64,000 nt of DNA from Candidatus Nomurabacteria bacterium. GTDB taxonomy: Bacteria > Patescibacteriota > Patescibacteriia > HK-STAS-PATE-3. The stretch spans positions 896,001 through 960,000 of the forward strand of contig CP060223.1 of NCBI GenBank assembly GCA_023898465.1. Direction: 5' to 3'. Below, piece by piece: positions 18,993 through 51,753 of the stretch. Positions within the stretch are counted from its first letter, which is position 1, and each line of letters begins with the position of its first letter. Below the pieces are notes generated by a model. That model was not told where the DNA came from. It worked only from the letters and a program-made list of their open reading frames with translations, and did not search any database. A program made the position numbers and the translations under genes.

Positions 18993-19068
18993 GCGCGCCT
19001 AGCTCAATGGTTAGAGCAGTCGGCTTATATCCGACCGGTTCCAGGTTCGAGCCCTGGGGCGCGCACCA
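18993..19068 (+). tRNA. tRNA-Ile with a UAU anticodon, CCA encoded
   Basis: Manual cloverleaf. Acceptor gcgcgcc/ggcgcgc, D stem gctc/gagc, anticodon stem gtcgg/ccgac, loop cttatat (anticodon tat), T arm ccagg-ttcgagc-cctgg. Confidence 0.8.
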
Positions 19069-28262: not shown

Positions 28263-28338
28263 TGGTGGACCCTACCGGGCTCGAACCGGTCACCTCCGCG
28301 TTGCAAACGCGGCGCTCTACCAAATGAGCTAAGGGCCC
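28263..28338 (-). tRNA. tRNA-Ala(UGC)
   Basis: Reverse complement gggccct...tttgcaa...agggtcc-a-cca. The G3:U70 Ala identity pair is present. Confidence 0.9.
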
Positions 28339-28626
28339 TTAATTCAGACTATTCGAAACAGGTGAAAAAATATCCCGTAGAAGAGATGGAACAAATCCAG
28401 TCAGTGTAAGAAAAACAATGAAAATCATGAGGATACCGAGAAGCTTTAAAAAAATTCTCGTACCACCCTCGGTACCGAGATGCTGCTCAGCCCATTCGAT
28501 CCGACCAAACCAGTTCATGAAAAAATCAGTCTTGATCACAAGTAGCGCACCTATCAGTATAACGATTCCACCAATTAAATATCGCATAACTCTTCTCGTA
28601 TTATTAACGCCCCCCCCTAGCACCAT
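28339..28626 (-). CDS. hypothetical small membrane protein
   Basis: 95-aa ORF with 2 TM helices. The start is ambiguous (MVLGGG or MRYLIGG). Confidence 0.35.
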   Translation of the reverse strand: MVLGGGVNNTRRVMRYLIGGIVILIGALLVIKTDFFMNWFGRIEWAEQHLGTEGGTRIFLKLLGILMIFIVFLTLTGFVPSLLRDIFSPVSNSLN

Positions 28627-28730
28627 CGAGTACTTGAGCTTGAAAAGCTAAGTACGAGATGAAAAGCGGCACGTTTGCAAAGGGCGCAGTCCGGCTTGGC
28701 CGGGCAAAGCCTGGAGCAAACGATGACGTG

Positions 28731-28807
28731 TGGTGGGCGATCCAGGAATCGAACCTGGGACCTCGTCATTATCAGTGACGCGCTCTAACCAACTGAGCTA
28801 ATCGCCC
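28731..28807 (-). tRNA. tRNA-Ile(GAU)
   Basis: Reverse complement gggcgat...cgtca-ctgataa-tgacg...atcgccc-a-cca. Confidence 0.9.
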
Positions 28808-28813
28808 ATGTTT

Positions 28814-28827
28814 GTTCCCCGTGGAAC
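28814..28827. repeat. 14-nt near-palindrome GTTCCCCGTGGAAC, 7 nt upstream of the tRNA-Ile(GAU) 5' end
   Basis: One of three copies of GTTCCYCGWGGAAC in the window. Confidence 0.5.
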
Positions 28828-28854
28828 ATGATGTAAAACTACATAACAACGCGG

Positions 28855-28940
28855 TGGTGCCGCCGGTCGGACTTGAACCGACATGAGGTTACCCTCAAGG
28901 GATTTTAAGTCCCTCGTGTCTACCATTCCACCACGGCGGC
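28855..28940 (-). tRNA. tRNA-Leu(UAA), type II
   Basis: Reverse complement gccgccg...aggga-cttaaaa-tccct, a long variable arm, and gtcgg-ttcaagt-ccgac-cggcggc-a-cca. Confidence 0.85.
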
Positions 28941-29043
28941 AAGCATTCAAAGCGAATACATGCCATATTTCAACACAAGAATGTCATTCATGCAAGACCA
29001 GCAGGAACCACATGCTAACACGAGTATTTCGGAAAAACAAGAC

Positions 29044-29721
29044 TTACTCGGGTTTATTAAACTCAATCTGCGAAGTAGACTCTTTGCTTCTGCGACTTTT
29101 AATAAACTCCCAGAGGGCGGGCAATAATGAAATAGCAATGATAGCAACTACGACAAAACTAAAATTCTCCTGGATAAAAGGAAGCCTGCCAAAAAAATAT
29201 CCTCCGAACAAGAAAATGCTGACCCAGAGGAATGCTCCAAGCACATTATAAGTGAAAAAGTGACGATATCGCATTAAGCCAACACCTGCAACAAAGGGAG
29301 CTATGGTACGAACAATTGGAACAAATCTCGCAATGACAATTGTCTTTGCTCCATACCTTTCATAAAAACGATGGGTACGGTCAAGATGCTCCTTCCTTAG
29401 CCAACGAGAATTTCTCAACTCATATACTCTTCGACCAAGGTGCTTCCCTATCCAATAGTTTAATCCATCGCCTAACACAGCCGCAGTAAACAGCAAGGCA
29501 AAGAGAAGTATAATATTTAGTGACCCTGCATCAGACAGCGCTCCAGCGGCAAAAAGAAGCGAATCCCCTGGCAAGAAGGGCATAATCACAATGCCCGTCT
29601 CAAGGAAGACAATACCAAAAAGAAGCGCATAGACCCAGGTGCCGTATGTGCTTATAGCTATTCCAAGGCTTTCATCTAAGTGGAGAAAGTATTGAGAAAT
29701 AGTGTGTAATAGCTCGTTCAA
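29044..29721 (-). CDS. DedA-family membrane protein
   Basis: GIVFLETGIVIMPFLPGDSLLFAAGAL and ARFVPIVRT DedA motifs. Confidence 0.85.
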   Translation of the reverse strand: MNELLHTISQYFLHLDESLGIAISTYGTWVYALLFGIVFLETGIVIMPFLPGDSLLFAAGALSDAGSLNIILLFALLFTAAVLGDGLNYWIGKHLGRRVYELRNSRWLRKEHLDRTHRFYERYGAKTIVIARFVPIVRTIAPFVAGVGLMRYRHFFTYNVLGAFLWVSIFLFGGYFFGRLPFIQENFSFVVVAIIAISLLPALWEFIKSRRSKESTSQIEFNKPE

Positions 29722-29796
29722 CTTGAATTAGATAATTGTTTCAGTATTTAGTCAAAATGTTATTTTATTTTTTTTGGCTAACTTTAGTGAGGCGAT

Positions 29797-29810
29797 GTTC
29801 CTCGAGGAAC
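29797..29810. repeat. perfect 14-nt palindrome GTTCCTCGAGGAAC
   Basis: Lies 11 nt 3' of tRNA-Ala(CGC) and about 75 nt upstream of the DedA start. Confidence 0.5.
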
Positions 29811-29820
29811 TTTTTAATTG

Positions 29821-29895
29821 TGGTGGACCAGAGGGGAGTTGAACCCCTGACCCCTGCAATGCGAATGCAGTGCTCTACCACTGAGCTACTGGCCC
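29821..29895 (-). tRNA. tRNA-Ala(CGC)
   Basis: Reverse complement gggccag...ctgca-ttcgcat-tgcag...ctggtcc-a-cca with the G3:U70 pair. Confidence 0.85.
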
Positions 29896-29901
29896 TAGTG
29901 T

Positions 29902-29915
29902 GTTCCTCGTGGAAC
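29902..29915. repeat. 14-nt near-palindrome GTTCCTCGTGGAAC, 7 nt upstream of the tRNA-Ala(CGC) 5' end
   Basis: Same spacing to the tRNA 5' end as the copy at 28814. Confidence 0.5.
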
Positions 29916-29945
29916 AAACGGATGGGAGGCCTAAATTATCTAACG

Positions 29946-30021
29946 TGGTGGACCCTACCGGGCTCGAACCGGTCACCTCTTCCATGCCATGGAAGCGCTC
30001 TACCAAATGAGCTAAGGGCCC
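29946..30021 (-). tRNA. tRNA-Ala(GGC)
   Basis: Body is almost identical to tRNA-Ala(UGC), but the anticodon stem-loop is cttcc-atggcat-ggaag. G3:U70 present. Confidence 0.9.
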
Positions 30022-30073
30022 ATGTGAACTACGGATATTTTAAGCTTCTTTTCTCCGTACCTGCCTCAGCCTT

Positions 30074-30145
30074 TGCCCCCACCATGAATCGAACATGGAT
30101 CCAGGGCTTAGGAGTCCCTTGTTCTATCCTTTGAACTATGGGGGC
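30074..30145 (-). tRNA. tRNA-Arg(CCU); no encoded CCA
   Basis: Reverse complement gccccca...aggga-ctcctaa-gccct (A31:G39 mismatch)...ccatg-ttcgatt-catgg-tgggggc-a. The loop CUCCUAA matches the E. coli argW loop. Confidence 0.7.
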
Positions 30146-30379
30146 AGGGGCGGCGGCAGGCAATTTTCTTTTACCCGAGATTTTGTAACTTTTGTAAAAA
30201 GTTATTTTTTTGCTAGCCTTTGCAAAAAATAAGCGTCGTAGAATATTATGTTAAAAATGCATCTAAGTTACGAGCCATTATTACACCAAGTGGCCATTTT
30301 CGCAATGCCTAAAGAGCCAGATCGATTGACACAGTAGCATCAACAACTTATTGTTACCACGTTTACCACTCATATACAT

Positions 30380-32545: not shown

Positions 32546-33937
32546 ATGCGACGTTACGTCATTCTCATAGGTATCGTACTCATACCGGTTCTGGCCGTAT
32601 TTATTATCGTGTCCGGGGTTATTAATAAACCACAGCCAAATGTACAGGACGTACCATTAACCTTTTGGACAGTACAAGATGACACAAGCGCCTTTACTGA
32701 CGTGATCGCAGCATATCAGCAAGCCCACCCCTACATTACCATCGAGGTCGTACAAAAGCGTGCTCAAGATTATGGTGAGGCACTTATTCAAGCATGGGCA
32801 CGTGGGGACGGGCCTGATATTTTTTCTCTCCCTAATGCAGAGGTTGGAGAATATGCTGACTTTATTGCCCCATTACCTGAGGCAACACAGGTCTATCAAT
32901 ATCAGAACAAACGCGTGCTTCTCAGTAGGCAGCTTGTGATTACACCGGTCACTTCAAGCTCTATCACCCCGGCCCGCCTCAGTAATGACTATGTAGATGT
33001 TATTGCCAGCGATGTTATCCGAGATGGACAAATATATGCACTCCCATTAAGCGTAGACACCTTAGCAGTCTACGTTAATCGCAACCTTCTAAACACTGCT
33101 AATATTGTTTCACCGGCAACAACCTGGCAAGAGCTTATTTCCCAAGTACCTGATCTCACTATTTTTGATGCGCAAAATAATATTATTCAATCTGGGATCG
33201 CACTTGGAACGGCTGAAAATGTTTCCTACTCAGCTGAAATACTCTCACTGCTCATGATGCAAAACGGTACACAAATGACTGACCCAACTGGAACACGTGT
33301 GCAATTTGATCAGGGAACAAAAGAATATAACGCGGGTGAACGAGCTGTTGATTTCTACACCGACTTCTCTGACGAAACAAAAGCAGTCTACAGCTGGTCA
33401 GGGGATAGCTCACACTCAATTGATAGTTTTATCGAAGGTAAGACTGCCTACTTAATTGGCACCTTAGCTGACCAGGCAACAATTCAGGAGCAAAACCCGG
33501 CACTCCGCTATGACATCGTGCCAATGTTCCACATCAATACCGATGGAACCGACACCAGCGGCAGCACGGGAACGCGTACAAAAATTAACTACGCAAAATA
33601 CTGGGTGCAGACAGTGGCAAAAAATTCCGCTCATAGCAATGAGGCTTGGAATTTTGTGCAATACATGAGTCAGTCAGGCGTCGTCGAGGCATATCTCAAC
33701 GCCAGCGGACGTATTTCTCCTCTCCGAAAAATATTAGCACAACAAGTGAATGTGCCGGCCTTACAAGTCTTTGCCAATCAAGCGCTCACTGCGCAAAATT
33801 GGTATCATGGAAACAGCTGGACACAAACTGAAGGCTATCTCAAGCAACTCATCACCGTTGTTGCTGAAAAAACAAAGTTGCCGTTGGAGGCTTTAAGCCA
33901 AGCTGCTAAACAAGTGCAGCTCACCTTTACTGAATAA
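32546..33937 (+). CDS. extracellular solute-binding protein (ABC-type sugar-binding family 1-like) with an N-terminal membrane anchor
   Basis: 463 aa. N-terminal TM helix and an SBP-like alpha/beta architecture. No permease or ATPase genes are adjacent. Confidence 0.55.
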   Translation: MRRYVILIGIVLIPVLAVFIIVSGVINKPQPNVQDVPLTFWTVQDDTSAFTDVIAAYQQAHPYITIEVVQKRAQDYGEALIQAWARGDGPDIFSLPNAEVGEYADFIAPLPEATQVYQYQNKRVLLSRQLVITPVTSSSITPARLSNDYVDVIASDVIRDGQIYALPLSVDTLAVYVNRNLLNTANIVSPATTWQELISQVPDLTIFDAQNNIIQSGIALGTAENVSYSAEILSLLMMQNGTQMTDPTGTRVQFDQGTKEYNAGERAVDFYTDFSDETKAVYSWSGDSSHSIDSFIEGKTAYLIGTLADQATIQEQNPALRYDIVPMFHINTDGTDTSGSTGTRTKINYAKYWVQTVAKNSAHSNEAWNFVQYMSQSGVVEAYLNASGRISPLRKILAQQVNVPALQVFANQALTAQNWYHGNSWTQTEGYLKQLITVVAEKTKLPLEALSQAAKQVQLTFTE

Positions 33938-33940
33938 CGC

Positions 33941-34924
33941 ATGTTACGTTTACCCTCAACTCGATTCTGGATCATCTCGGGTTTAAGCATGCTTATTGTA
34001 CTTGGCGCAGTAATACCTGCCCGAGCGGAGATCTTACCAAACTGCGAAAAAACACTTTACAAAGTTGAGCTCAATGGAGATCTCGATTGCCCAGATGGAA
34101 CAAACAATTGTATTGATCCAAATGATTACATACAAACTGTACACGGTGATATCGAACAGGTAATGGTCAACCGGAGCTGTGGTTTCAATGACTTCATTCA
34201 GCTCTTTGTGAATCTCGCAAACTGGGGCTTGGCTATTATGGGTGCCCTGGCTGTTTTCTTCTACATGTACGCGGGCTTCCAATTCTTAACTGCCGGCGGT
34301 CGGAGCGAGAATGTCGAGCAGGGTAAAAAAATTCTCTGGGGCACCACTATGGGAGTGATTATCATGCTGACTGCGTGGGCCGTTATTGGTTTCTATATTG
34401 TTGCTACAACTGGCAGTAACCAAGGCTTTGTTTTTCCTAATGATCCTAACTTCCTAGCCCCTTGGTTTGGTCAGACCGAAACTTGTCGACAGACCTATAT
34501 AAAAAATTACGACCAATCTCAGTGTGGACAAAACAATCTTCATATAAACTGTTCAGACCCGATTGATGGAAGCGATGGACCTGTTACTCGTTTGCAAAGC
34601 ATACTTACTCAGCGAGCTTGTAACCCTGGAGGAATAGACGGCTGTTTTGGTTCAAACACTGAAAGTGGGCTCCGACAATTCCAGAGAGTGAATTGGCGCA
34701 GTGGAATTATTGAAGACGGGGTAGTGAATGCCGATGATTGGAGCACCCTACTCAACACTTCTACTGCGTATGATTGTTCAGTCCCGCTAGGTTGCTGCAT
34801 CAATCCTGATGAACCGAGTCTTTGTTATGATCAAATTCCAGAGGCCTACTGTAACCAGAATGGTTGGACCTTCCTACCAGATAGCTGTGCGAGTTACGAC
34901 TTTGACTGTGAAGGACCAAGTTAA
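33941..34924 (+). CDS. long pilin-like paralog: Cys-rich N-terminal region + two-TM hairpin pilin-like core + PG_binding_1 domain + Cys-rich C-terminus
   Basis: The core FIQLFVNLANWGLAIMGALAVFFYMYAGFQFLTAGGRSENVEQGKKILWG...IMLTAWAVIGFYIV is paralogous to the ORFs downstream. Near the C-terminus, LQSILTQRACNPGGIDGCFGSNTESGLRQFQRVNW resembles a peptidoglycan-binding domain. Confidence 0.55.
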   Translation: MLRLPSTRFWIISGLSMLIVLGAVIPARAEILPNCEKTLYKVELNGDLDCPDGTNNCIDPNDYIQTVHGDIEQVMVNRSCGFNDFIQLFVNLANWGLAIMGALAVFFYMYAGFQFLTAGGRSENVEQGKKILWGTTMGVIIMLTAWAVIGFYIVATTGSNQGFVFPNDPNFLAPWFGQTETCRQTYIKNYDQSQCGQNNLHINCSDPIDGSDGPVTRLQSILTQRACNPGGIDGCFGSNTESGLRQFQRVNWRSGIIEDGVVNADDWSTLLNTSTAYDCSVPLGCCINPDEPSLCYDQIPEAYCNQNGWTFLPDSCASYDFDCEGPS

Positions 34925-34937
34925 TTTTCTATTGCAT

Positions 34938-35300
34938 ATGAATACACTACGAAAAAAACGCTTACCACTTATTCTCATGATCGCCGGACTCGTCCTCATG
35001 CCGCTGAGCGCCTTTGCGCAAAGCGGCTCGGCTGTAGCCATACCTAACCCGATTTCGTGTGGTAACTTAATTTGTCTCTTTGTAAACCTCATGCGCCTTA
35101 TTCTGGCCGGCTTAGGTGTCTTTGGCATGGTGATGTTTATTTGGGGAGGCTTTCTCATGCTTACTTCTGCGGGTAATGCTGATCGAATTCAAAAAGGAAA
35201 AGAAACCTTAGTGTGGTCAATTCTTGGTATTTTAGTAATTCTCGGCAGTTGGATACTCCTCAAATCAGTGATTGATGCAATTAACGGGGTTACTAACTAG
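34938..35300 (+). CDS. pilin-like two-TM hairpin protein (divergent paralog, 120 aa)
   Basis: Signal peptide ending AFAQS, then CGNLICLFVNLMRLILAGLGVFGMVMFIWGGFLMLTSAGNADRIQKGKETLVWSILGILVILGSWILL. Confidence 0.6.
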   Translation: MNTLRKKRLPLILMIAGLVLMPLSAFAQSGSAVAIPNPISCGNLICLFVNLMRLILAGLGVFGMVMFIWGGFLMLTSAGNADRIQKGKETLVWSILGILVILGSWILLKSVIDAINGVTN

Positions 35301-35385
35301 GTTTGACGAAGTAGGAAGAGAGAGGTACGCTATATTCGACATAAGGTGAAGGAACACTTCACAATTGAAAGGGGGTGAGAAACAC

Positions 35386-35751
35386 ATGAAACAACGTACA
35401 CGACTGCTCGGCACACTAGCAGCATTTGCTATACTAGCACTTCCGTTGCTTGTTTCCGCCCAATCTGCTTTCACCGTAGAAAACATCGGTGGATCAGTTG
35501 GTCTCGGTACTGCTGACCTCAAAGATACCGTCATCAACATCATTCAATGGGTGCTTGGTATCCTCGCACTCGTTGCTGTCGTTATGATCATCATTGGTGG
35601 TTTCCAGTGGATGACTGCTGGTGGAAACGACGAAAAGGTGGAAAAGGCCAAGAAGATTATCTCAGCCGCGGTAATTGGTCTTATTATCATCTTGTTGGCT
35701 TGGGCTATTGTCATCTTCGTCGCAAATACAACGGCGAATGTCACTACCTAA
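35386..35751 (+). CDS. pilin-like two-TM hairpin protein (VirB2/TrbC-like topology), paralog 1
   Basis: SD agggggtga 6 nt before the ATG. Sec signal peptide ...LLVSAQS/AF. TM1, K-rich loop TAGGNDEKVEKAKK, TM2, C-terminus ANTTANVTT. Confidence 0.7.
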   Translation: MKQRTRLLGTLAAFAILALPLLVSAQSAFTVENIGGSVGLGTADLKDTVINIIQWVLGILALVAVVMIIIGGFQWMTAGGNDEKVEKAKKIISAAVIGLIIILLAWAIVIFVANTTANVTT

Positions 35752-35776
35752 TCCAATCACGTATTTGGACTTTTAG

Positions 35777-35810
35777 AACATACCCAGCTCACTGCTGGGT
35801 ATGTTTTTAT
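35777..35810 (+). terminator. rho-independent terminator
   Basis: aacatacccagc-tcact-gctgggtatgtt followed by tttat. Confidence 0.65.
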
Positions 35811-35873
35811 TCAAAAAAGCCTTACTATGCTATAGTAGTATATATCTTTGAGAAGAAGAGGGGGTGAATATAC

Positions 35874-36230
35874 ATGAAGAAAGCTTTAATCGCAGTCGGT
35901 ACTTTGGCGCTCGTTGCTATGCCAATGCTTGCATCAGCCCAATCTGCTTTCACCGTTGAAAACGTTGGAGGATCCGTCGGTCTCGGTACCGCTGATTTGA
36001 AGGACACCGTCATCAACATCATTCAATGGGTGCTTGGTATTGTCGCCTTAATCGCTGTCGTTATGATCATCATTGGCGGTTTCCAGTGGATGACTGCTGG
36101 TGGAAACGACGAAAAGGTGGAAAAGGCCAAGAAGATTATATCTTCAGCCGTAGTCGGTTTGATTATTGTGTTACTCGCCTGGGCAATTGTTGTATTCGTT
36201 GCAAACACAACCTCAAACGTTACCGCCTAG
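35874..36230 (+). CDS. pilin-like two-TM hairpin protein, paralog 2
   Basis: SD agggggtga. 87-nt and 62-nt segments are nearly identical to paralogs 1 and 3. C-terminus ANTTSNVTA. Confidence 0.75.
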   Translation: MKKALIAVGTLALVAMPMLASAQSAFTVENVGGSVGLGTADLKDTVINIIQWVLGIVALIAVVMIIIGGFQWMTAGGNDEKVEKAKKIISSAVVGLIIVLLAWAIVVFVANTTSNVTA

Positions 36231-36249
36231 CGTACACTTCGCAAATTCT

Positions 36250-36287
36250 GCAAAAGCCCTACCTTATACGAGGGCTTTTGCTTTTTC
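36250..36287 (+). terminator. rho-independent terminator
   Basis: gcaaaagccct...agggcttttgc followed by tttttc. Confidence 0.65.
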
Positions 36288-36307
36288 TGCGCAACTTTTA
36301 TTTTTCA

Positions 36308-36316
36308 TGGTATACT
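36308..36316 (+). promoter_or_regulatory. extended -10 TGGTATACT upstream of paralog 3
   Basis: The same 9-mer as at 17930. Confidence 0.4.
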
Positions 36317-36356
36317 GAATGCATTACATCTTTAGGTAAAGGAGGTGAATGTCAGA

Positions 36357-36725
36357 ATGACCATAAAACGATTTCTTCCCTTAGCGCTACTCGGACTTAC
36401 CTTGGTATTACTGCCTTCTACTGTAGCAGCTCAATCAACCGCCTTTACGATCGAAAATATTGGTGGATCAATCGGTCTCGGTACCGCTGATTTGAAGGAC
36501 ACCGTCATCAACATCATTCAATGGGTGCTTGGTATCCTTTCATTAGTAGCCGTTGTTATGATTATTTTTGGTGGCTTTACCTGGATGACTGCCGGAGGTG
36601 CTGAAGATAAAGTTGATCAAGCCAAGCGTATTATCACCGCTGCAGTAATTGGTCTTATCATCATCTTGTTGGCTTGGGCTATTGTCATCTTCGTCGCAAA
36701 TACAACGGCGAACGTTACCACTTAG
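36357..36725 (+). CDS. pilin-like two-TM hairpin protein, paralog 3
   Basis: SD aaggaggtga. Start chosen at MTIKRF. C-terminus ANTTANVTT. Confidence 0.7.
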   Translation: MTIKRFLPLALLGLTLVLLPSTVAAQSTAFTIENIGGSIGLGTADLKDTVINIIQWVLGILSLVAVVMIIFGGFTWMTAGGAEDKVDQAKRIITAAVIGLIIILLAWAIVIFVANTTANVTT

Positions 36726-36747
36726 GCTACACTAGAATCAAAACACA

Positions 36748-36781
36748 GACCTCTCCATATTTGGGGAGGTTTTGTGCTTTT
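36748..36781 (+). terminator. rho-independent terminator
   Basis: cctctcc-atattt-ggggagg followed by ttttgtgctttt. Confidence 0.6.
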
Positions 36782-36809
36782 GGCTGACTCCGCTACACTA
36801 TGAACGCAT

Positions 36810-38816
36810 ATGTCTAAAATACCGGATAGAACACAGGCCTGGCTGCTAGGAATGATGATCTGTATGATTGTTATCTCTTTTGCAGGTCAATACGTAAAAT
36901 GGCAAAGTCTGGCCTATAACGGACTCGATTTGGGTATTTACACTCAAGTAGTATCAGAAACCAGCCAAGGGAATTTCTTTGGCTTCACCATTCACCCGCA
37001 CTCCTACTTGGGTGACCATGTTGAATTTTTACTATTACTCCTTGTGCCTCTTTTTTGGATTGTGGCTCATCCACTCTGGCTCTTGGCCGCACAAAGCCTT
37101 GTGTTGGCTTTAGGCGCTATCCCTATATTTCGCCTTGCACGCAAAAAACTAAATGGTAACTGGGCTCTAGGTTTAAGTGCAGCCTACCTTTTTTCGCCTT
37201 TCCTCTGGAATGCAAACATGTATGAATTTCACATGTTAGCTTTTGCAATTCCAATCTTACTTGCGGCACTACAAACCTACATCACTAAATCACTCAAGTG
37301 GCATTGGCTTTGGCTGGCTTTGGCCTTGCTCGTACGAGAAGATGTTGCCTTTGTAGTATTTGGCATTGGTATTGTGGCTGCAATTGAGCGGAGGAATTGG
37401 AAATGGTGGCTACCCACCTTTTTGGTTAGCGCTGCCTGGTTTGGATGTAGTATTTATCTCGCTGGATCCTTGGGCACTTTGGGTGAATATAAATTTCTCA
37501 AATACTATGGATGGCTCGGCCCCGATCTTGTTTCTATTATCGGAAACTTTTTTGGACATCCCTGGCTCGTACTCCAACGCGTGCTTCATCCGCAAGCGCT
37601 TGCTTTCTTGCTAGGCCTAGGACTCCCTTTTGCCTATTTGCCAATCTTCCGACTTCGTTGGCTTATCCCGATCTTACCTATCTACTTACAACTTTCTCTC
37701 TCAGGAGTTGCGCGAGAAATCTCACTAGAAATGCACTACGTGAGTTTGTTCTTACCATTTCTCTGGATTGGCTCTATTGAGGCAATACACAAACTTCGTA
37801 GTGAAATGGGAAAAACTCGACGAGGAAAATTTATCCAAGAATACGCCGGGGTTATTGTTAGCGTACTCGCTGTTGTGGCAATATATTGCTTCATCGTAAT
37901 CGGTCCGATTCGCGGCCTGGCACAAACCTGGTATCGACCAGATACGCAACGTGAACATGAACAGTTAGCCAGAGATGTGCTCAACATTGTACCCGATACC
38001 ACACCTCTCGCAACTGGATATCGCTTTATTTCATGGACAGCCACTCGACCCGTGTTGTACTCCTTGCACTATCTTTTTATTGGCCGGCAACAATATAGCG
38101 ATGAAAGTTTCCCACTTGACCCTAGCATCCAAACGCTGCTCATAGACCAAAGTGATTTTGTTACCTATCAATCAGTCTATCCGGAAGATAATACCGACTA
38201 CAAAGGTGGTGCCCAGCGCTTCCGCGATCTCATTGAAGAAAGAAAGCTTCAGCTCAATCTCATGGTTGACGATCTCTTGCTCTATACAAACACCCATACT
38301 ACATCCCAAAAAGAATTAGTGCGTATTGGAAATGAAGATCAACTAAGACAAAGCCTCTTTCAGACAAGCAACGGACTCATCTTGCACTCCTGGGAGAATA
38401 ATGAAGGAATCAACAAACTTCAAAGTGAATATGTGCATATTAACACGCACAACTACCTCACCCTCCCGCTCTCGTTTATCTGGTCTCAGCATGAAATAAC
38501 AACGCGTCATAATACCGTACTACTCACACTGACTCGGGGAGACGGCGCAGTGTATCAAAAAGAATATCCCATCGCCCCGCTCTGGCCGCAATCAGAGTGG
38601 CCATTAGATACTCCAATGATTACGCAACACCAATTTCTCATCCCGACCGACTTCGCCCAAAGTGATACCCAGATAGCAATGGATGTGATGTCGATTCGGG
38701 GTCGATTAAGTTTGGATACCCAACGCTCTATCGTGCCTCGCTACGATGAACACGACTCCTTGGGCCACCTTAATCTCGGAAATCTTATTCTACCGGACGC
38801 AAGCGATACAGAGTAA
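36810..38816 (+). CDS. large polytopic membrane protein (DUF2079-like, putative GT-C-type) with a C-terminal extracytoplasmic domain
   Basis: 668 aa. About 12 N-terminal TM helices, with FTIHPHSYLGDHVEF and LWLLAAQSLVLALGAIPIFRL motifs, then a 300-aa soluble C-terminal domain. Confidence 0.5.
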   Translation: MSKIPDRTQAWLLGMMICMIVISFAGQYVKWQSLAYNGLDLGIYTQVVSETSQGNFFGFTIHPHSYLGDHVEFLLLLLVPLFWIVAHPLWLLAAQSLVLALGAIPIFRLARKKLNGNWALGLSAAYLFSPFLWNANMYEFHMLAFAIPILLAALQTYITKSLKWHWLWLALALLVREDVAFVVFGIGIVAAIERRNWKWWLPTFLVSAAWFGCSIYLAGSLGTLGEYKFLKYYGWLGPDLVSIIGNFFGHPWLVLQRVLHPQALAFLLGLGLPFAYLPIFRLRWLIPILPIYLQLSLSGVAREISLEMHYVSLFLPFLWIGSIEAIHKLRSEMGKTRRGKFIQEYAGVIVSVLAVVAIYCFIVIGPIRGLAQTWYRPDTQREHEQLARDVLNIVPDTTPLATGYRFISWTATRPVLYSLHYLFIGRQQYSDESFPLDPSIQTLLIDQSDFVTYQSVYPEDNTDYKGGAQRFRDLIEERKLQLNLMVDDLLLYTNTHTTSQKELVRIGNEDQLRQSLFQTSNGLILHSWENNEGINKLQSEYVHINTHNYLTLPLSFIWSQHEITTRHNTVLLTLTRGDGAVYQKEYPIAPLWPQSEWPLDTPMITQHQFLIPTDFAQSDTQIAMDVMSIRGRLSLDTQRSIVPRYDEHDSLGHLNLGNLILPDASDTE

Positions 38817-40422
38817 GCTCGCCTGATTGGTATACTGTCTGAAGTGCAGAAATCGCGCTTGGATCAGCCACACTATTCCGCGTATCAAATTCACCCCATA
38901 GTAAATAATCCACACTCTGCTCTCGCAACCATCTTTCAAGGGCAGTATTTCCACTTTGGCGCGCTACAATAAAACCATCTGATTTGTCATTGTAATGCAA
39001 GGTTTCAATCGGGTGTCCAAATACCACTGCCCGACCCGCCCAAGCTGGTATATAGAGATTGCCAATTTTCCCAGCTGCAAAAACTGCACGAGTATCGGTG
39101 TGTGTTTTCATCCAGTCACTCATATCTTGATAAGATTGATCGACGTAGAGGTGGTATGGCGGCTGACGAAAAGTATCATTCGTCCAAAGATGTACATCCA
39201 TGCCCACTAAAGCAATCGGCGAAAGACTAAACACTACTACGGCCAGCATTGGAGTGGCTACATAGCGAGACCAGCTTACTAATGGAAATCGCTTGAATAC
39301 TATACGAAGACCAATAAAAGCAAATAAAGCTAGGGGGAGCATCCAACCTTCAGTTAGGCGGCGACTAAAACTAATCGGCAAAAAGAAAATACATGCTTGC
39401 CCAAACAACCACGCAAGCGGCATTGCGTAGGTGCTTCGATCACGACCTAGTTGAAACAAAGCAAGAAGGGCCAGCGGAATAAGAGCGCCATAGCTAATAA
39501 GTGTGGTAAAAAAGAATGGCATAGTATTCACATTCTGAGCCGCTCGGCTATTCGCAATTGGGTCAAAAAGTATTATCCCAACTTGGTAGAAAATCATTGG
39601 CAGCGCTAGTCCTCCTACAAGAAGCGCCCCCCACAAAGCCCGTGCCGTTTTATCCCGCTGCCATAAAAAAGTGAAGAGTATAAAAAGCACAAAAACCCCT
39701 ATCACTGTTGGTAAGTGAAAGGGGTGAAAGCTCATAAGTAAAAAAAGCGACAGGCCGCTTTGCAAAAAATACTGTATTTGCTTTTGCTGCACCCCGAGGT
39801 AATACCAATGAAAAATGAGAATAAGTAATGAGGTGGCTAAAATAAAATGCGGGCTCTGATACATCGTTAAAAATGTATACGCTTCACTTACCCAGAGATC
39901 CATCGGCCAAATCGCCCACTCAATAAATCCAAAAATGTATTTAATAAAAGGATATGCAATTGCTCCAAATCCTGCAGCAAAAAGAAAAAGCAAAATAGCA
40001 AATTTACGCTCACGCCATGCCGGAAGAAAATTGCGTAAGAAAATTTCGCTCGACCATAGGAGTAAGGGGATGAGGAGGATTCGGGCTAAATGAAAACTTA
40101 CTAATGCGGAAAGGTGCAGCCACTTTGCCATATATCCAACAACAATCCAGATTGGACTGAAAATAAAAGCGTCATGCGGCTCAGCAGTAAACAAATCCCT
40201 AAGCATCACCTGTCCCTGTTTTACCTGTTCTATGTAGGAAAAATAGACCGGCAAATCACCTGGAGCCAGTGTATGTCCTCCGGTAAAAATCATCCCATCT
40301 GCCTGCATCATCCACGCGTAGAGGTAAGGGAACGTTGTGAGAATAACTAAAGCGAGGGCTATCCACCAAAACCAACGACGTGGCATTTTTTCAGCATCTG
40401 GGTGAAGAGAAAAAAACTGCAT
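38785..40422 (-). CDS. polytopic GT-C-like membrane glycosyltransferase (last gene of a four-gene operon)
   Basis: 545 aa with more than 10 TM helices. Its ATG overlaps the stop of the upstream Dpm1-like gene (TAATG). Confidence 0.45.
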   Translation of the reverse strand: MQFFSLHPDAEKMPRRWFWWIALALVILTTFPYLYAWMMQADGMIFTGGHTLAPGDLPVYFSYIEQVKQGQVMLRDLFTAEPHDAFIFSPIWIVVGYMAKWLHLSALVSFHLARILLIPLLLWSSEIFLRNFLPAWRERKFAILLFLFAAGFGAIAYPFIKYIFGFIEWAIWPMDLWVSEAYTFLTMYQSPHFILATSLLILIFHWYYLGVQQKQIQYFLQSGLSLFLLMSFHPFHLPTVIGVFVLFILFTFLWQRDKTARALWGALLVGGLALPMIFYQVGIILFDPIANSRAAQNVNTMPFFFTTLISYGALIPLALLALFQLGRDRSTYAMPLAWLFGQACIFFLPISFSRRLTEGWMLPLALFAFIGLRIVFKRFPLVSWSRYVATPMLAVVVFSLSPIALVGMDVHLWTNDTFRQPPYHLYVDQSYQDMSDWMKTHTDTRAVFAAGKIGNLYIPAWAGRAVVFGHPIETLHYNDKSDGFIVARQSGNTALERWLREQSVDYLLWGEFDTRNSVADPSAISALQTVYQSGELTLYRLRPVE

Positions 40423-41120
40423 TACTTCTGAGAGCGAAACAATAATGCAAGAATCATTTGAGCGTATTCACGAGCAATCGTGAATGAAATTTTACTCTTG
40501 CCATATTGGCGATCCTGAAAAACATAGCCGATTTCTGTGGTCTGAAGTGGACGCGCTCGAACCAAAATCTCTACTAAAAGTTTATACCCGCGCGGACGTA
40601 AAGTATGTGCAATGCGTGTATACACATCTCGTCGTACGGCAAAATATCCGCTCATAGGATCACGCTCTCGAATACCGAGCATCACCTGAGCAATCCTAGT
40701 AGCAAACCAACTCATGGCTTGGCGTCGCAGAGGCCAACCTAACATACCGCCGCCACTAACAAAGCGTGAACCGATAGCCACGTCATTACCTAACTGCACC
40801 GCCCTAATCATCTGCGGAATAATTGCCGTATCATGCGAAAGATCGGCATCCATGCAAATAAAAATTTCTGATCTGGCCTCTTCCATACCAGCCATCAGTG
40901 CAGAAGCAAGGCCTAACTTACCTGTTCGCTCAATAACCCTGACTGGATAGTGAGCAGCCAGCGAACGAACAAGCTGAGCGGTCCCATCTGGCGAAGCATC
41001 GTCAACCACAATTATCTCGACAACCAGCTGCAAGCGGGCAATCTGTCGAAGGCACGCCTCAATGTTCTCCTTTTCATTATAGGTTGGCAGGATAATGCTA
41101 GCTTTTGGCAAGGCGCTCAT
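40422..41120 (-). CDS. polyprenol-phosphate mannose (or other sugar) synthase, GT2 (Dpm1/Ppm1-like)
   Basis: ASIILPTYNEKENIEACL...VVDDASPDGT...DADLSHD motifs of the GT2 dolichol-P-mannose synthase family. Confidence 0.85.
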   Translation of the reverse strand: MSALPKASIILPTYNEKENIEACLRQIARLQLVVEIIVVDDASPDGTAQLVRSLAAHYPVRVIERTGKLGLASALMAGMEEARSEIFICMDADLSHDTAIIPQMIRAVQLGNDVAIGSRFVSGGGMLGWPLRRQAMSWFATRIAQVMLGIRERDPMSGYFAVRRDVYTRIAHTLRPRGYKLLVEILVRARPLQTTEIGYVFQDRQYGKSKISFTIAREYAQMILALLFRSQK

Positions 41121-42406
41121 GAAGATACGGATTTGGACTGATCGCTCGACCCTGATGAAGTATAAGGCAGGGCTGCTAATAGGAAAACAAGCGCGAGGTA
41201 ACCCAGGTGTGTGTCATTAAAATACCGGGCAAAAAACCAAAAAACAAGCAGGGTAAATCCATAGTACCAGAAGATATTTTGCAGGGAAATGTCTAGTCGA
41301 CTCTTCCTCAATAAAAGGAGAAAACTCGGGATTCCAATGCAGAGAGAAAAAACCCAAAATGGGAAATGTCCGTAGGGATCAATAACATGAAAAGTTGCCA
41401 TCCACTGGGCAATACCTAAACCTGATGCTGGATAACTCAACTCAGCGCTGCCGTTTGCATACTTCCAAACGTCATCATAAAAAGCTCCTGGCGACCAGAG
41501 AAAGAAAAAACCCATAACCACAATAAGGAGAAGTAGCGAAGGAAATAATGGACGATATACTTGCCGCCAAGGACCTGGTTTCCGGCGCTGCCATACTGCT
41601 ACGAGGTAAAATGGCACAAAGAGCCAGGCGGACTGCTTCATCAGTAAAGCAAAAACCAGAGCAAATCCCGAGCTCGTGTATCTGCCTCGATAAAGCGCTA
41701 GGGCTGCGAGGAAGAGGAAAAGCAATACGGTGATGTCATTCAACCCAGCCACAATAAACTTCAACATAAATGGATTCAACGCAGTAAGGATAATTGCTAG
41801 ATCTCTCCAAGGAGCTTGCACGGTTTTTGCTAAGAGTAAGAGGAAGGCAATCCAAAAAAGTAAGTACAGCGCACGTACATCAAACCAACCAGTAAATCGC
41901 TCTAGGCTCCATTGCCACGGCGCCACGATAAGGAAAGAGCCTGGTAAATACACATAGTGCTCCCAGGCTGGATTGGGTCGCGTGCTATCAGAAAAACGAT
42001 CAGGGAACACACCAAAAGCTGTACCACGATAATCACTCGCATAAGGATTTTTACCCTGTAGGAGAAAATGACTCGCTTCCTCAGTCTGGATTGCACCATC
42101 GTGCACATATGCTTCTAGTGGACGATAAGGTCGTACCAGCATCTGCAAGGTACAGACGGTCACTAGGATGCCTATGCTTAAGATAAGGACGATCCTTGTT
42201 CGCATCTCATCTGCTGATGGGGCAAAGATAAGACTTAATCCATACGCAAACACCAGCAACAAAGGCAGGATGCCAAACCAGAAAAGTGGTGTGGGGGAAA
42301 AGAAATAACTAAAGGCCTGCTGACCTGAAAAAACCTCGGCCATCACATAAAGCACGAGGAGAAGAATGAGAACAAAAGTAAAACGTCGAATCGTGATTCC
42401 GTTCAT
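41117..42406 (-). CDS. polytopic membrane glycosyltransferase (DUF2029/GT87-like, polyprenol-P-sugar dependent)
   Basis: 429 aa with more than 10 TM helices. Contains the FLLQGKNPY motif. Overlaps its downstream neighbour by 4 nt. Confidence 0.45.
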   Translation of the reverse strand: MNGITIRRFTFVLILLLVLYVMAEVFSGQQAFSYFFSPTPLFWFGILPLLLVFAYGLSLIFAPSADEMRTRIVLILSIGILVTVCTLQMLVRPYRPLEAYVHDGAIQTEEASHFLLQGKNPYASDYRGTAFGVFPDRFSDSTRPNPAWEHYVYLPGSFLIVAPWQWSLERFTGWFDVRALYLLFWIAFLLLLAKTVQAPWRDLAIILTALNPFMLKFIVAGLNDITVLLFLFLAALALYRGRYTSSGFALVFALLMKQSAWLFVPFYLVAVWQRRKPGPWRQVYRPLFPSLLLLIVVMGFFFLWSPGAFYDDVWKYANGSAELSYPASGLGIAQWMATFHVIDPYGHFPFWVFSLCIGIPSFLLLLRKSRLDISLQNIFWYYGFTLLVFWFFARYFNDTHLGYLALVFLLAALPYTSSGSSDQSKSVSS

Positions 42407-46487: not shown

Positions 46488-47539
46488 GTTCGATGAAACA
46501 ACAAAGTGAACAGCTCATTCATGCCACCGAGCGAATCTTTCGTGAATGTGTGCAGACAAATGGGGCTATCACTATCTCTCCTGATAGTAAACTGGTAATA
46601 CCTCATCACGCTGCTTTTGTTACTGTGGCAGCACCTTTTGTTGGTTTAGAGCTTGCTCCAGAATTTTTTGCTTGGGTTAAAAAAACTCTAGAGAATGAGG
46701 AGAATAACGGAGCCTTAAGTAATGCCTATGATTGGGAGGGAAAAGCAACCCATTCGCCAGCCCGATTTGCACCCGAACAAAACGGCGCCATGCTCTGGAG
46801 TATTGATGCCTATATTGAACGACATCCAGAGGAGCTGGCTCATATGAAGGAATTAGTAAGCCTGCTCGTGCAAGGAATTACTCAGCACTGGAAAAAAAAT
46901 GGATTTTCGCGTACTACTAATGAGGTATGGGGGGAACATCATCACATAGGAGCGCCTGAGATGAATCAGCGCTTTACATATGCCCTAGCCGCCTGTGCAC
47001 ATGGGCTTGAACGTGCGGCCGCTCGCTATAAGCAACGGCGATGGAAAGCTATTGCCGGGCAAATGCGTGAGCATATAAATAATGCCTGGGATGAAAACAA
47101 AAAGACTTTTCATCGCGCGCTTGGTAAACATAATGATACAAGCATTGATAGTCTAACTCTCGGACTTTGCTGGCCTTATCATATTTACGAGGCAAAAGAG
47201 AAACGCATGCAGGCAGCTGTCGAACGCATTGAAGAGGTGCTTATTGATGGTGGTGGAGTGCACCGCTTCCAATATGATTACCACGACAGCGAAGGGGATG
47301 CAGAAGATGGTGGTGGTATTTGGCCAGCTCTTAATTTTTGGATGAGCATCTATTTTGTTGAACAAGGCGATGAGGCAAAGGCGCGGGCTTACTTCCAATG
47401 GGTATTAGAACGCGTGCATGAAGAACTCCCAGAACAAATGTTTAAAGATTTTCGTATCGGCATTACTCCTTTTGCCTGGAGTCACGCACTCTTTCTCTTG
47501 GCTGCTCATAGTTTAAAACTTCTCCCAAATGAAGCGTAA
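46484..47539 (+). CDS. GH15-family glycoside hydrolase (glucoamylase/trehalase-like catalytic domain)
   Basis: (alpha/alpha)6-barrel-type motifs: WGEHHHIGAPEMNQ, IWPALNFWMSIY and FAWSHALFLLA. Confidence 0.6.
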   Translation: MSSMKQQSEQLIHATERIFRECVQTNGAITISPDSKLVIPHHAAFVTVAAPFVGLELAPEFFAWVKKTLENEENNGALSNAYDWEGKATHSPARFAPEQNGAMLWSIDAYIERHPEELAHMKELVSLLVQGITQHWKKNGFSRTTNEVWGEHHHIGAPEMNQRFTYALAACAHGLERAAARYKQRRWKAIAGQMREHINNAWDENKKTFHRALGKHNDTSIDSLTLGLCWPYHIYEAKEKRMQAAVERIEEVLIDGGGVHRFQYDYHDSEGDAEDGGGIWPALNFWMSIYFVEQGDEAKARAYFQWVLERVHEELPEQMFKDFRIGITPFAWSHALFLLAAHSLKLLPNEA

Positions 47540-50248: not shown

Positions 50249-50304
50249 TTGTACGGTAGGTGCGCATAGAACTTTCATTAGACAATTAATTCCTTAGAAA
50301 AAAC

Positions 50305-51675: not shown

Positions 51676-51735
51676 GCAGGTTCTTATATAGAATACGTGC
51701 AGCGCGTCCAAATGGGCGCGCTGTTTGTAAAAAAA

Positions 51736-51744: not shown

Positions 51745-51753
51745 AAGTGAAGC

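What the first reader, a model, noticed from the sequence alone, without database searches (positions are those of the whole stretch)
33941..36790. Tandem array of five paralogous secreted two-TM hairpin 'pilin-like' genes showing concerted evolution
Five co-oriented genes encode proteins with a Sec signal peptide (cleavage after ASA/AQS), a hydrophilic N-terminus, TM1, a short K-rich cytoplasmic loop (TAGGNDEKVEKAKK), TM2 and a short extracytoplasmic C-terminus. This is the topology of VirB2/TrbC/TraA conjugative-type pilins. The three short copies have the strongest SD sites in the window (AGGGGGTGA / AAGGAGGTGA). Each has its own intrinsic terminator, and paralog 3 also has an extended -10 (TGGTATACT) between the paralog-2 terminator and its ATG. 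The three copies share long mosaic blocks of near-identical DNA: 62 nt identical between copies 2 and 3; about 87 nt between copies 1 and 2; about 78 nt between copies 1 and 3. This points to ongoing gene conversion or recombination among copies. I found no T4SS ATPase or VirB6 in the window, so this may be a different filament or envelope system, or the partner genes lie elsewhere.
Basis: partly seen in the sequence, partly recalled or inferred. Interest (0 to 1): 0.85.

Follow-up and report, generated by a model that had tools for sequence, protein, structure and literature searches.

The report
VirB2-like pilin gene array, Patescibacteria

Summary
Five co-oriented genes (33941-36725) each encode a signal peptide followed by a two-helix membrane hairpin. 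All five score above Pfam's curated threshold for PF18895 (T4SS_pilin). The last three (P3, P4, P5) have the three strongest Shine-Dalgarno sites in the window and their own terminators. Their DNA is a statistically significant mosaic (exact shared runs of 62, 64 and 53 nt; permutation p<1e-5).

The VirB2/TrbC-like reading is supported, but it is not new. The window is a closed Patescibacteria MAG chromosome. VirB2-like pilin arrays of 2-11 genes are published for 383 Patescibacteria assemblies, and one such array is essential in Ca. Southlakia.

Four things differ here:
- P3-P5 are 70-80% identical, against a published within-array maximum of 54%.
- Segmental gene conversion recurs in every relative examined.
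- P3-type pilins are better conserved between genomes than the flanking housekeeping genes.
- The array lies in a conserved GalU / solute-binding protein / pilins / DUF2079 / GT-C glycosyltransferase locus. No VirB4, VirB6 or VirD4 was recognised in the window or in 25 related loci.

Best reading: one multi-copy major subunit plus two minor subunits of a T4SS-type filament, with the machinery encoded elsewhere. I could not check the rest of the genome.

The parts
32546..33937 (+). Membrane-anchored extracellular solute-binding protein (SBP_bac_1). Its stop codon lies 4 nt before the P1 start. It is the most conserved neighbour of the array.
   Evidence: Pfam PF01547, E 1.6e-17. One N-terminal TM segment. 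An SBP gene lies immediately upstream of the pilin genes in L001-L008, L011, L016, L017, L019, L020, L022 and L025.
33941..34924 (+). P1, a long pilin-domain protein. It has a signal peptide, a 55-aa Cys-rich ectodomain, a T4SS_pilin hairpin (residues 91-151), and a 170-aa Cys-rich C-terminal ectodomain with PG_binding_1 (214-265). Proposed minor or anchoring subunit.
   Evidence: PF18895 29.7 bits (gathering threshold 26.6) and PF01471 27.1 bits (threshold 23). 16 Cys and the topology. Positional orthologues of 387-518 aa in relatives. GenBank USN53415.1 'peptidoglycan-binding protein'.
34938..35300 (+). P2, a short divergent pilin, 27% identical to P4. It starts 13 nt after P1 and has no terminator of its own. 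Proposed minor subunit.
   Evidence: PF18895 32.1 bits; PF04956 TrbC E 0.0042. 27% identity. Positional orthologues at 35-58% identity in relatives. No hairpin after it.
35371..35378 (+). Shine-Dalgarno site GGGGGTGA of P3.
   Evidence: Duplex energy -12.0 kcal/mol, third strongest in the window.
35386..35751 (+). P3, a P3-type (major) pilin, copy 1. Mosaic composition a1-b1-c1.
   Evidence: PF18895 55.8 bits. Mosaic.
35775..35815 (+). Intrinsic terminator after P3: a 14-bp stem followed by UUUUUAUU.
   Evidence: Fold energy -26.7 kcal/mol, z = -6.8.
35828..35836 (+). Extended -10 element TGCTATAGT, 38 nt before the P4 ATG.
   Evidence: This is a sequence pattern only.
35874..36230 (+). P4, a P3-type pilin, copy 2. 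Mosaic composition a2-b1-c2. SD GGGGGTGA at 35860.
   Evidence: PF18895 58.1 bits. NCBIfam NF045849 41.5 bits against a cut-off of 40. SD duplex -12.4 kcal/mol.
36250..36288 (+). Intrinsic terminator after P4: an 11-bp stem followed by a U-run.
   Evidence: Fold energy -22.0 kcal/mol, z = -5.0.
36308..36316 (+). Extended -10 element TGGTATACT, 41 nt before the P5 ATG.
36357..36725 (+). P5, a P3-type pilin, copy 3. Mosaic composition a2-b2-c1. SD GGAGGTGA at 36341. The alternative GTG start at 36345 lies inside the SD site.
   Evidence: PF18895 47.6 bits. SD duplex -12.9 kcal/mol, strongest in the window.
36747..36782 (+). Intrinsic terminator after P5.
   Evidence: Terminator scan. Fold energy -24.1 kcal/mol, z = -4.1.
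36810..38816 (+). DUF2079 polytopic membrane protein. It is the syntenic downstream neighbour and the first gene of a putative envelope-glycosylation cluster that runs to 44041.
   Evidence: PF09852, E 1.3e-58. Syntenic in L001-L008, L011, L015 and L032. The following genes are 8-10-TM proteins; their orthologues hit MptA_B/GT87/PMT_2. A GT2 gene is also present.

Best explanation
The five genes encode VirB2-like pilins of Pfam family PF18895 in a Patescibacteria chromosome.

**Shown.** Each product has a Sec-type signal peptide and a two-helix hairpin with a short charged loop. P3, P4 and P5 are separate high-expression units, each with its own -10 element, very strong SD site and terminator. 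They encode nearly the same mature protein (77-91% identical). Repeated segmental gene conversion keeps them alike. P1 and P2 are old, divergent, positionally conserved paralogues that sit directly behind a solute-binding-protein gene.

**Inferred.**
1. After signal-peptidase cleavage, the hairpins sit in the membrane with both ends outside and the loop in the cytoplasm.
2. P3-type protein is the major subunit. Its three gene copies serve dosage.
3. P2 and P1 are minor or anchoring subunits. P1 carries a peptidoglycan-binding ectodomain.
4. A monoderm-type T4SS (VirB4 and partners), encoded elsewhere on the 1.08-Mb chromosome, extracts and polymerises the subunits into a surface filament or conduit. 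In cultivated Patescibacteria this apparatus is needed for growth on a host bacterium.
For: **Family membership.**
- PF18895 is above threshold for all five proteins and for 42 of 42 relatives.
- Sub-threshold TrbC/VirB2 hits: P3 at E 4.5e-5, and 14 of 42 relatives with a best E of 9e-7.
- hhalign against real VirB2/TrbC gives 66% probability and E 5.5e-5, in register.
- P4 passes NCBIfam NF045849, 'pilin-like conjugal transfer protein'.
- Several sources already name close homologues 'pilin' or 'VirB2 component'.

**Organism.** Patescibacteria MAG, single contig of 1,082,586 bp.

**Literature.**
- VirB4 is present in 2,417 of 3,035 Patescibacteria assemblies. VirB2-like pilins occur in 1,948 of them, but near virB4 in only 1,135. 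There are 441 arrays of 2-11 pilin genes (PMC12102498).
- The pilin series and the T4SS are essential in Ca. Southlakia (PMC10633639; PMC12857230).

**Expression signals.**

**Major/minor model.**
- P3-type proteins are 66-72% identical between genomes whose GalU, SBP and PGI are only 43%, 41% and 32% identical.
- Conversion tracts include synonymous sites.
- P1 and P2 are positional orthologues in at least 12 genomes.
Against: - No VirB4, VirB6, VirD4 or other recognisable T4SS gene was found in the 64-kb window.
- None was found within 10 kb of the array or of singleton P3-type genes in 25 related loci. Gene tables were available for L001, L002 and L032, Pfam scans were run on selected large ORFs of L012 and L018, and a Walker-A screen of ORFs of at least 400 aa was applied to all 25.
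- The constant neighbours are instead an orphan solute-binding protein and envelope glycosyltransferases.
- PF04956 itself is below threshold for the window proteins.
- Fold searches cannot tell this alpha-hairpin from thousands of others. They did not put VirB2 or TraA structures on top.
- No solved structure matches by sequence.
- I could not check whether this genome has VirB4.
Confidence: 0.6

Rival explanations
1. The P3-type subfamily does not depend on a T4SS. The hairpins would be an abundant envelope or membrane module that oligomerises on its own or anchors ectodomains. They would work with the adjacent solute-binding protein and the GT-C/GT2 glycosylation genes, for example as a glycosylated surface layer or an uptake structure.
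For: - The GalU-SBP-pilins-DUF2079-GT-C synteny is conserved, and no T4SS gene was recognised near the array in any locus examined.
- Sequence conservation is unusually high for a surface pilin.
- The C-terminal N-V-T motif just outside TM2 is nearly invariant.
- The same domain forms the N-terminus of 1.8-3.1-kaa Ig/lectin-domain proteins. It also occurs as 2-16 covalently linked hairpins in one polypeptide.
Against: - The family is homologous to TrbC/VirB2.
- In Patescibacteria at large, pilin genes lie near virB4 in 1,135 of 1,948 assemblies. The pilin array inside the Southlakia T4SS cluster is essential.
- Small streamlined genomes keep gene order for reasons unrelated to function.
- Unlinked pilin genes are common (813 of 1,948 assemblies, by subtraction from the figures).
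Confidence: 0.25
2. The array is a variation system. Gene conversion among copies would create new surface variants for host range or for evasion, as proposed for virB2 paralogue arrays in Anaplasma and Bartonella.
For: - The mosaic P3=a1b1c1, P4=a2b1c2, P5=a2b2c1 shows that segments are shuffled.
- The literature proposes host-adaptation roles for Patescibacteria arrays and antigenic variation for Anaplasma.
Against: - The mature proteins differ little (9, 13 and 22 of 96 residues), and many tract differences are synonymous.
- All copies carry full expression signals. There are no silent cassettes.
- Between-genome conservation is higher than for housekeeping genes. That indicates purifying selection, not diversifying selection.
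- The most variable part is the cleaved signal peptide.
Confidence: 0.1
3. The genes encode small two-TM lysis, toxin or immunity proteins (holin, bacteriocin immunity), or the array is an assembly artefact of a collapsed or expanded repeat.
For: The proteins are small two-TM proteins in tandem, and only this genome has three P3-type copies.
Against: - No holin or lysis family matches the hairpin in PHROGs. Only P1's PG-binding part resembles the endolysin cell-wall-binding region.
- A cleavable signal peptide with both termini outside is not holin-like.
- There is no phage or bacteriocin context.
- The three copies are distinct, with fully diverged flanks and signal peptides.
- Independent assemblies show the same architecture.
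- An ENA contig independently encodes a close variant of P3, in the same 90%-identity cluster.
Confidence: 0.03

Closest known systems
VirB2-like pilin arrays of Patescibacteria (Quinonero-Coronel et al. 2025, PMC12102498; essential pilin series in the Ca. Southlakia epibionticum T4SS cluster, Wang et al. 2023, PMC10633639)
   Same: - Same phylum and same Pfam family (PF18895).
- Tandem array of 2-11 genes, chromosomal, with no relaxase context.
- P1 and P2 are about 25-30% identical to the other copies, like the published average of 25%.
   Different: - P3-P5 are 70-80% identical, against a published within-array maximum of 54%, and show mosaic conversion tracts. The passages retrieved from that paper do not mention this.
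- The array is not in or near a T4SS cluster. It lies in a conserved SBP / DUF2079 / GT-C locus.
- One member is fused to a PG-binding ectodomain.
Agrobacterium VirB2 / RP4 TrbC T-pilins (Pfam PF04956, MPF_T conjugative pili)
   Same: - Signal peptide, then two hydrophobic helices with a short charged loop.
- The profile-profile alignment is in register.
- Small size, about 95 aa when mature.
   Different: - The window proteins fall below the PF04956 threshold.
- The signal peptide is a short canonical Sec type (22-29 aa), not a long leader.
- There is no adjacent virB1/virB3/virB4 operon, unlike the plasmid genes.
- The host is monoderm.
- Cyclisation is unknown.
virB2 paralogue arrays of Anaplasma phagocytophilum (8-15 copies; PMC3556328)
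   Same: Multiple tandem virB2 paralogues with a signal peptide and two helices, split away from other vir loci.
   Different: - In Anaplasma the array lies next to virB4-2, and diversity sits in two hypervariable regions thought to give antigenic variation.
- Here the copies are homogenised and no virB4 is adjacent.
Concerted evolution of duplicated highly expressed genes (e.g. tufA/tufB); recalled from general knowledge, not tested here
   Same: Non-reciprocal exchange keeps the coding regions of duplicated, highly expressed genes alike while their flanks diverge.
   Different: - A different protein family.
- Here one internal segment (the end of TM1 plus the loop) keeps two ancient types across genomes.

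Membership tests
Pfam PF18895 T4SS_pilin | Score at or above the curated gathering threshold (26.6 bits) | tested here: met
   P1 29.7, P2 32.1, P3 55.8, P4 58.1 and P5 47.6 bits. 42 of 42 relatives also match.
Pfam PF04956 TrbC/VirB2 pilin | Score at or above the gathering threshold (27.9 bits) | tested here: not met
   P3 24.0 bits (E 4.5e-5) and P2 17.7 bits; the others gave no hit. 14 of 42 relatives hit at E<=0.01, best 9e-7. hhalign against 6 genuine VirB2/TrbC proteins gives 66% probability, E 5.5e-5. This is remote homology, not membership.
VirB2/TrbC-type conjugative pilins (functional class) | Cleavable signal peptide followed by two hydrophobic helices joined by a short charged loop | tested here: met
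   Hydropathy and AxA sites. AlphaFold2 helices 42-74 and 79-117, pLDDT 82-94 over the hairpin. Cleavage itself is inferred.
VirB2/TrbC-type conjugative pilins (functional class) | Encoded with, or at least in the same genome as, VirB4 and the channel subunits that assemble it | tested here: inconclusive
   Absent from the 64-kb window and from 25 related loci. The rest of the genome could not be read. As a prior, VirB4 occurs in 80% of Patescibacteria assemblies.
VirB2/TrbC-type conjugative pilins (functional class) | Polymerises into an extracellular filament with bound phospholipid | not testable with these tools
   No multimer modelling or experiment was available. Monomer fold searches do not discriminate.
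Patescibacteria VirB2-like pilin arrays (PMC12102498) | At least two PF18895/PF04956 genes in tandem, or separated by one gene, in a Patescibacteria genome | tested here: met
   Five consecutive genes. Organism.
Patescibacteria VirB2-like pilin arrays (PMC12102498) | Members of an array are sequence-divergent (average 25%, maximum 54% identity) | tested here: not met
   P3-P4 80.5%, P3-P5 74.8%, P4-P5 69.5%. Relatives reach 91.6%. P2 against P4 is 27%. This is a reported property, not a definition.
NCBIfam NF045849 Mbov_0395 pilin-like conjugal transfer protein | Score at or above the cut-off of 40 bits | tested here: inconclusive
   P4 41.5 bits (passes). P3 39.5, P2 32.2, P5 30.2 and P1 14.8 bits (fail).
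Holins / phage lysis proteins | Match to a holin family; no cleavable signal peptide; lysis-cassette context | tested here: not met
   No PHROGs lysis hit on any hairpin. A signal peptide is present. The context is housekeeping.

The most novel reading that the evidence does not exclude
The P3-type hairpin may not be merely a T4SS pilus subunit. It could be a general, self-associating envelope module of Patescibacteria used independently of VirB4.
- It is encoded in a fixed cassette with an orphan solute-binding protein and a polyprenol-dependent GT-C glycosylation cluster.
- Its invariant C-terminal N-V-T might be a glycosylation site.
- It has been re-used as the N-terminal anchor or polymerisation handle of giant Ig/lectin adhesins and as covalent poly-hairpin proteins.

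If so, this would be a host-contact or nutrient-capture surface structure of a new kind.
Probability: 0.12. Interest if true: 0.7.

Novelty: new member of a known kind. Interest (0 to 1): 0.32.

Why it matters
Patescibacteria make up a large share of uncultivated bacteria and live attached to other microbes. Their T4SS and its pilin arrays are among the few systems shown to be essential for that lifestyle.

This locus adds a well-defined sub-type: one highly conserved, multi-copy, strongly expressed 'major' pilin kept uniform by gene conversion, plus two conserved minor paralogues, one of which binds peptidoglycan. It lies away from any recognisable T4SS gene and next to envelope-glycosylation genes.

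That gives concrete candidates for the structural subunit, and for its anchor, to look for in cryo-ET and proteomics. It also offers a clean test of whether these pilins really depend on VirB4. As a discovery of kind it is not new.

Tried and rejected
2. **Sequence profile of the family against all PDB chains.** Nothing below E 0.47.
3. **tblastn of P4 against 72,556 plasmids.** No match. RP4 and R388 records were not in the collection. Genuine VirB2/TrbC sequences were obtained instead by probing with a recalled Agrobacterium VirB2 sequence and taking the annotated plasmid genes.
4. **Looking for T4SS genes.**
   - Pfam scans of all window ORFs of at least 150 aa and the open frame at the window end, which is PBP1A.
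   - Large ORFs next to singleton pilins in L012 and L018: P-type ATPase, tRNA synthetases, DnaB, NusA, H+-PPase.
   - A Walker-A screen of all ORFs of at least 400 aa in 25 loci: a helicase-like protein (probably RecG, not confirmed by a family search), an unassigned P-loop (AAA-like) protein and a GTPase only.
   - The 934-aa ORF in L017 is PBP1A.
5. **Finding this genome in the supplement of PMC12102498,** to read off its VirB4 status. Not found; the stored file is truncated.
6. **Genome contigs.** The window genome is not in that collection.
7. **Rfam.** Only tRNAs in the window.
8. **Holin or immunity reading.** Rejected.
9. **Oligosaccharyltransferase signature.** The WWD motif is absent from the neighbouring membrane proteins.


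Full report
**What is there.**

The region 33941-36725 holds five co-oriented ORFs:

| Gene | Coordinates | Length |
|---|---|---|
| P1 | 33941-34924 | 327 aa |
| P2 | 34938-35300 | 120 aa |
| P3 | 35386-35751 | 121 aa |
| P4 | 35874-36230 | 118 aa |
| P5 | 36357-36725 | 122 aa |

These are exactly the GenBank gene calls USN53415.1-USN53419.1. GenBank labels P1 'peptidoglycan-binding protein' and the rest 'hypothetical protein'. The source is a MAG labelled Candidatus Nomurabacteria bacterium, a single contig of 1,082,586 bp.

Each protein starts with a hydrophobic signal-like helix ending in an A-x-A-type site. Two long hydrophobic helices follow, joined by a short charged loop. An AlphaFold2 model of P4, built on 42 sequences, has mean pLDDT 78, with 82-94 over the hairpin. 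It shows helices 2-21, 42-74 and 79-117.

P1 is not a short pilin. It has a 55-aa Cys-rich N-terminal ectodomain and the hairpin. A 170-aa Cys-rich C-terminal ectodomain follows, containing a PG_binding_1 domain.

**Expression signals.**

- P5, P4 and P3 have the three strongest predicted SD:anti-SD duplexes among all ORF starts of at least 80 aa in the window: -12.9, -12.4 and -12.0 kcal/mol. The next is -11.5.
- Strong hairpins followed by U-runs come after P3, P4 and P5, with z-scores of -6.8, -5.0 and -4.1 against shuffles. None follows P1 or P2.
- Extended -10 motifs lie 38 nt before the P4 ATG and 41 nt before the P5 ATG.
- P1 starts 4 nt after the stop of the upstream solute-binding-protein gene. 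P2 starts 13 nt after P1.

The layout is therefore one probable operon (SBP-P1-P2, perhaps starting at GalU) followed by three monocistronic high-expression units.

**The mosaic is real.**

The longest exact shared DNA runs are 62 nt for P3-P4, 64 nt for P4-P5 and 53 nt for P3-P5. With 1-3 mismatches allowed they extend to 86-91, 64-76 and 68-74 nt.

In the three-way alignment, the 83 informative sites fall into three blocks:

1. P4=P5 in the N-terminal mature part.
2. P3=P4 in the end of TM1 plus the loop.
3. P3=P5 in TM2 and the C-terminus.

The sites show only 22 changes of type. None of 100,000 permutations reached so few.

Signal-peptide codons and the flanks are essentially unrelated between copies (41-59% DNA identity), while the tracts are 100% identical including synonymous positions. 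This is the signature of gene conversion between old paralogues. It is neither recent duplication nor protein-level selection. P1 and P2 take no part in it.

**What it is.**

- All five proteins exceed Pfam's curated threshold for PF18895, 'Type IV secretion system pilin'. So do 42 of 42 close relatives.
- The classical TrbC/VirB2 family PF04956 is hit below threshold: P3 at E 4.5e-5, and 14 of 42 relatives at E<=0.01.
- I built an alignment of six genuine, annotated VirB2/TrbC genes that sit between virB1 and virB3 on MPF_T conjugative plasmids. hhalign aligns the family to it in register over TM1-loop-TM2, with 66% probability and E 5.5e-5.
- P4 also just passes NCBIfam NF045849, a pilin-like conjugal-transfer protein of mycoplasma ICEs.
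- No holin family matches.
- Fold searches were uninformative, because an alpha-hairpin matches thousands of structures.

**It is already known as a kind.**

The 532 homologues found are Patescibacteria proteins. Some sources already name them 'pilin' or 'type IV secretory pathway VirB2 component'. The family has 48,914 clusters at 50% identity at E<=1e-3.

Quinonero-Coronel et al. 2025 (PMC12102498) searched 3,035 Patescibacteria genomes with PF18895 and PF04956. They report:

- VirB4 in 2,417 assemblies.
- VirB2-like pilins in 1,948 of those, near virB4 in 1,135.
- 441 arrays of 2-11 pilin genes in 383 assemblies.

Wang et al. 2023 (PMC10633639) showed that a series of pilin genes inside the T4SS cluster of Ca. 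Southlakia epibionticum is essential for epibiotic growth. A 2025 review calls these the only monoderm T4SSs with potential conjugative pili (PMC12857230).

**What is different here.**

1. *Identity.* P3-P5 are 69.5-80.5% identical over the full length. Their mature parts differ at 9 to 22 of 96 residues. The published arrays average 25% identity with a maximum of 54%.

2. *Conversion recurs in relatives.* I fetched 25 related loci.
   - Six related genomes have two P3-type copies and the window has three.
   - Within-genome copies share near-identical signal peptides and TM2 regions. In L004 the signal peptide shows 0 differences in 66 nt and there is a 104-nt exact run. In L007 there is a 90-nt exact run.
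   - The segment covering the end of TM1 and the loop keeps two ancient types (IGGFQWMTA... versus xGGFTW-like) that are recognisable across genomes.
   - Mean within-genome DNA identity exceeds between-genome identity in every segment.

3. *Conservation.* Between the window and L001, P3-type proteins are 66-72% identical. GalU, SBP, DUF2079 and PGI are 43%, 41%, 32% and 32% identical. This argues for strong purifying selection and a dosage role. It argues against antigenic or host-range diversification.

4. *Context.* The order GalU - SBP_bac_1 - P1-type - P2-type - P3-type(s) - DUF2079 - GT-C-like membrane proteins (MptA_B/GT87/PMT_2 hits) with GT2 - PGI - YebC - RuvC is conserved. The link between SBP and the pilins persists in the most distant loci (L016-L025).

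5. *No T4SS genes nearby.* None was recognised in the 64-kb window, around the arrays, or around singleton P3-type genes in other genomes.

**How it most likely works.**

Shown: family membership, topology, expression signals, conversion, and the conserved trio of paralogue types.

Inferred: the proteins are exported by Sec, cleaved after the A-x-A site, and inserted with both ends outside. P3-type is the abundant major subunit, encoded three times for dosage and kept uniform by conversion. P2 and P1 are minor subunits, with P1 tying the structure to peptidoglycan, either its own or the host's. A VirB4-type machine encoded elsewhere assembles them into the pilus or conduit that Patescibacteria need for life on a host.

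I give this 0.6. Family membership is near certain. Dependence on a T4SS is the weak step, because I could not read the rest of the genome.

**Rivals.**

- *T4SS-independent envelope module tied to the SBP and glycosylation genes (0.25).* This fits the synteny, the conservation, and the nearly invariant C-terminal N-V-T motif. It also fits two unexpected architectures found with the exhaustive search. First, 1.8-3.1-kaa proteins with a single N-terminal P3-type domain (50-64% identical to P4) followed by Ig-like and lectin domains. Second, single polypeptides of 2-16 hairpins without internal signal peptides. Both architectures are also compatible with a pilus, since both termini of VirB2-type pilins face outward (established knowledge of F- and T-pilus structures, not tested here).
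- *Variation system (0.1).* Disfavoured by the near-identity of the mature proteins and the absence of silent cassettes.
- *Holin or immunity protein, or assembly artefact (0.03).* Rejected for practical purposes.

**Verdict.**

The kind of system is already described and annotated.

The locus is a new member with some unreported traits: homogenised multi-copy major pilin, a PG-binding pilin fusion, and a fixed SBP/GT-C neighbourhood with no T4SS gene within about 30 kb on either side. Interest is moderate to low (0.32).

The decisive missing piece is trivial with the full genome: whether a VirB4/VirB6 locus exists, and whether it has its own pilins.

Noticed in passing
L013:3768-9971; proteins P0151, P0234 and about 40 others: Giant proteins (1.8-3.1 kaa) start with a single P3-type pilin domain, 50-64% identical to P4. 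Ig-like (Big_5, TIG, Big_7) and Laminin_G_3 lectin domains follow. These look like adhesins that use the pilin hairpin as an anchor or polymerisation handle.
   Followed up: partly
proteins P0125 (820 aa), P0132 (311 aa), P0150 (239 aa), P0139 (1775 aa): Some single polypeptides consist of 2-16 tandem pilin hairpins joined by roughly 30-aa linkers, without internal signal peptides. P0125 has 8 PF18895 domains. This is the protein-level counterpart of the gene arrays.
   Followed up: partly
window 36810-44041: The cluster just downstream of the array holds DUF2079, three 8-10-TM proteins with C-terminal soluble domains (orthologues hit MptA_B/GT87/PMT_2/ALG3) and a Dpm1-like GT2. It is syntenic with the array in relatives. 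It suggests polyprenol-phosphate-sugar-dependent glycosylation outside the membrane.
   Followed up: partly
window 35737-35748, 36216-36227, 36711-36722 (C-termini of P3-P5): P3-type pilins end in TTxNVT. N, V and T are invariant or nearly so across 42 homologues. This is an N-x-T sequon directly outside TM2, next to glycosyltransferase genes. No WWD-type oligosaccharyltransferase motif was found in the neighbours.
   Followed up: partly
L009, L010, L012 (each about 10001-10360): Singleton P3-type pilin genes occur at a second conserved locus (DnaB / SPFH - pilin - P-type cation ATPase - Asp/Asn/Lys-type class II tRNA synthetases) in Kerfeldbacteria-like genomes. No T4SS gene is nearby there either.
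   Followed up: yes
L018:9872-13015: A seven-gene tandem pilin array in another Patescibacteria MAG, followed by NusA and an H+-pyrophosphatase.
   Followed up: partly
window 18993-19068: A tRNA-Ile gene with anticodon TAT. Most bacteria decode AUA with a lysidine-modified CAU tRNA (general knowledge), so a UAU anticodon is unusual.
   Followed up: no
window 55265-55843 (-) and 55952-56470 (-): Two small proteins with signal peptides, no Pfam family, and the next-strongest SD sites after the pilins (-11.5 and -11.4 kcal/mol). They are probably abundant secreted proteins of unknown role.
   Followed up: no
window 47529-54130: Duplicated glycogen-type genes: two Glyco_transf_5 starch/glycogen synthases (47529-49004, 52628-54130) and two GH57 proteins (49004-50248, 50305-51675) in one cluster.
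   Followed up: no
window 28263-30146 (-): A cluster of six tRNA genes on the minus strand (Ala-TGC, Ile-GAT, Leu-TAA, Ala-CGC, Ala-GGC, Arg-CCT), interrupted by a VTT-domain membrane protein gene.
   Followed up: no
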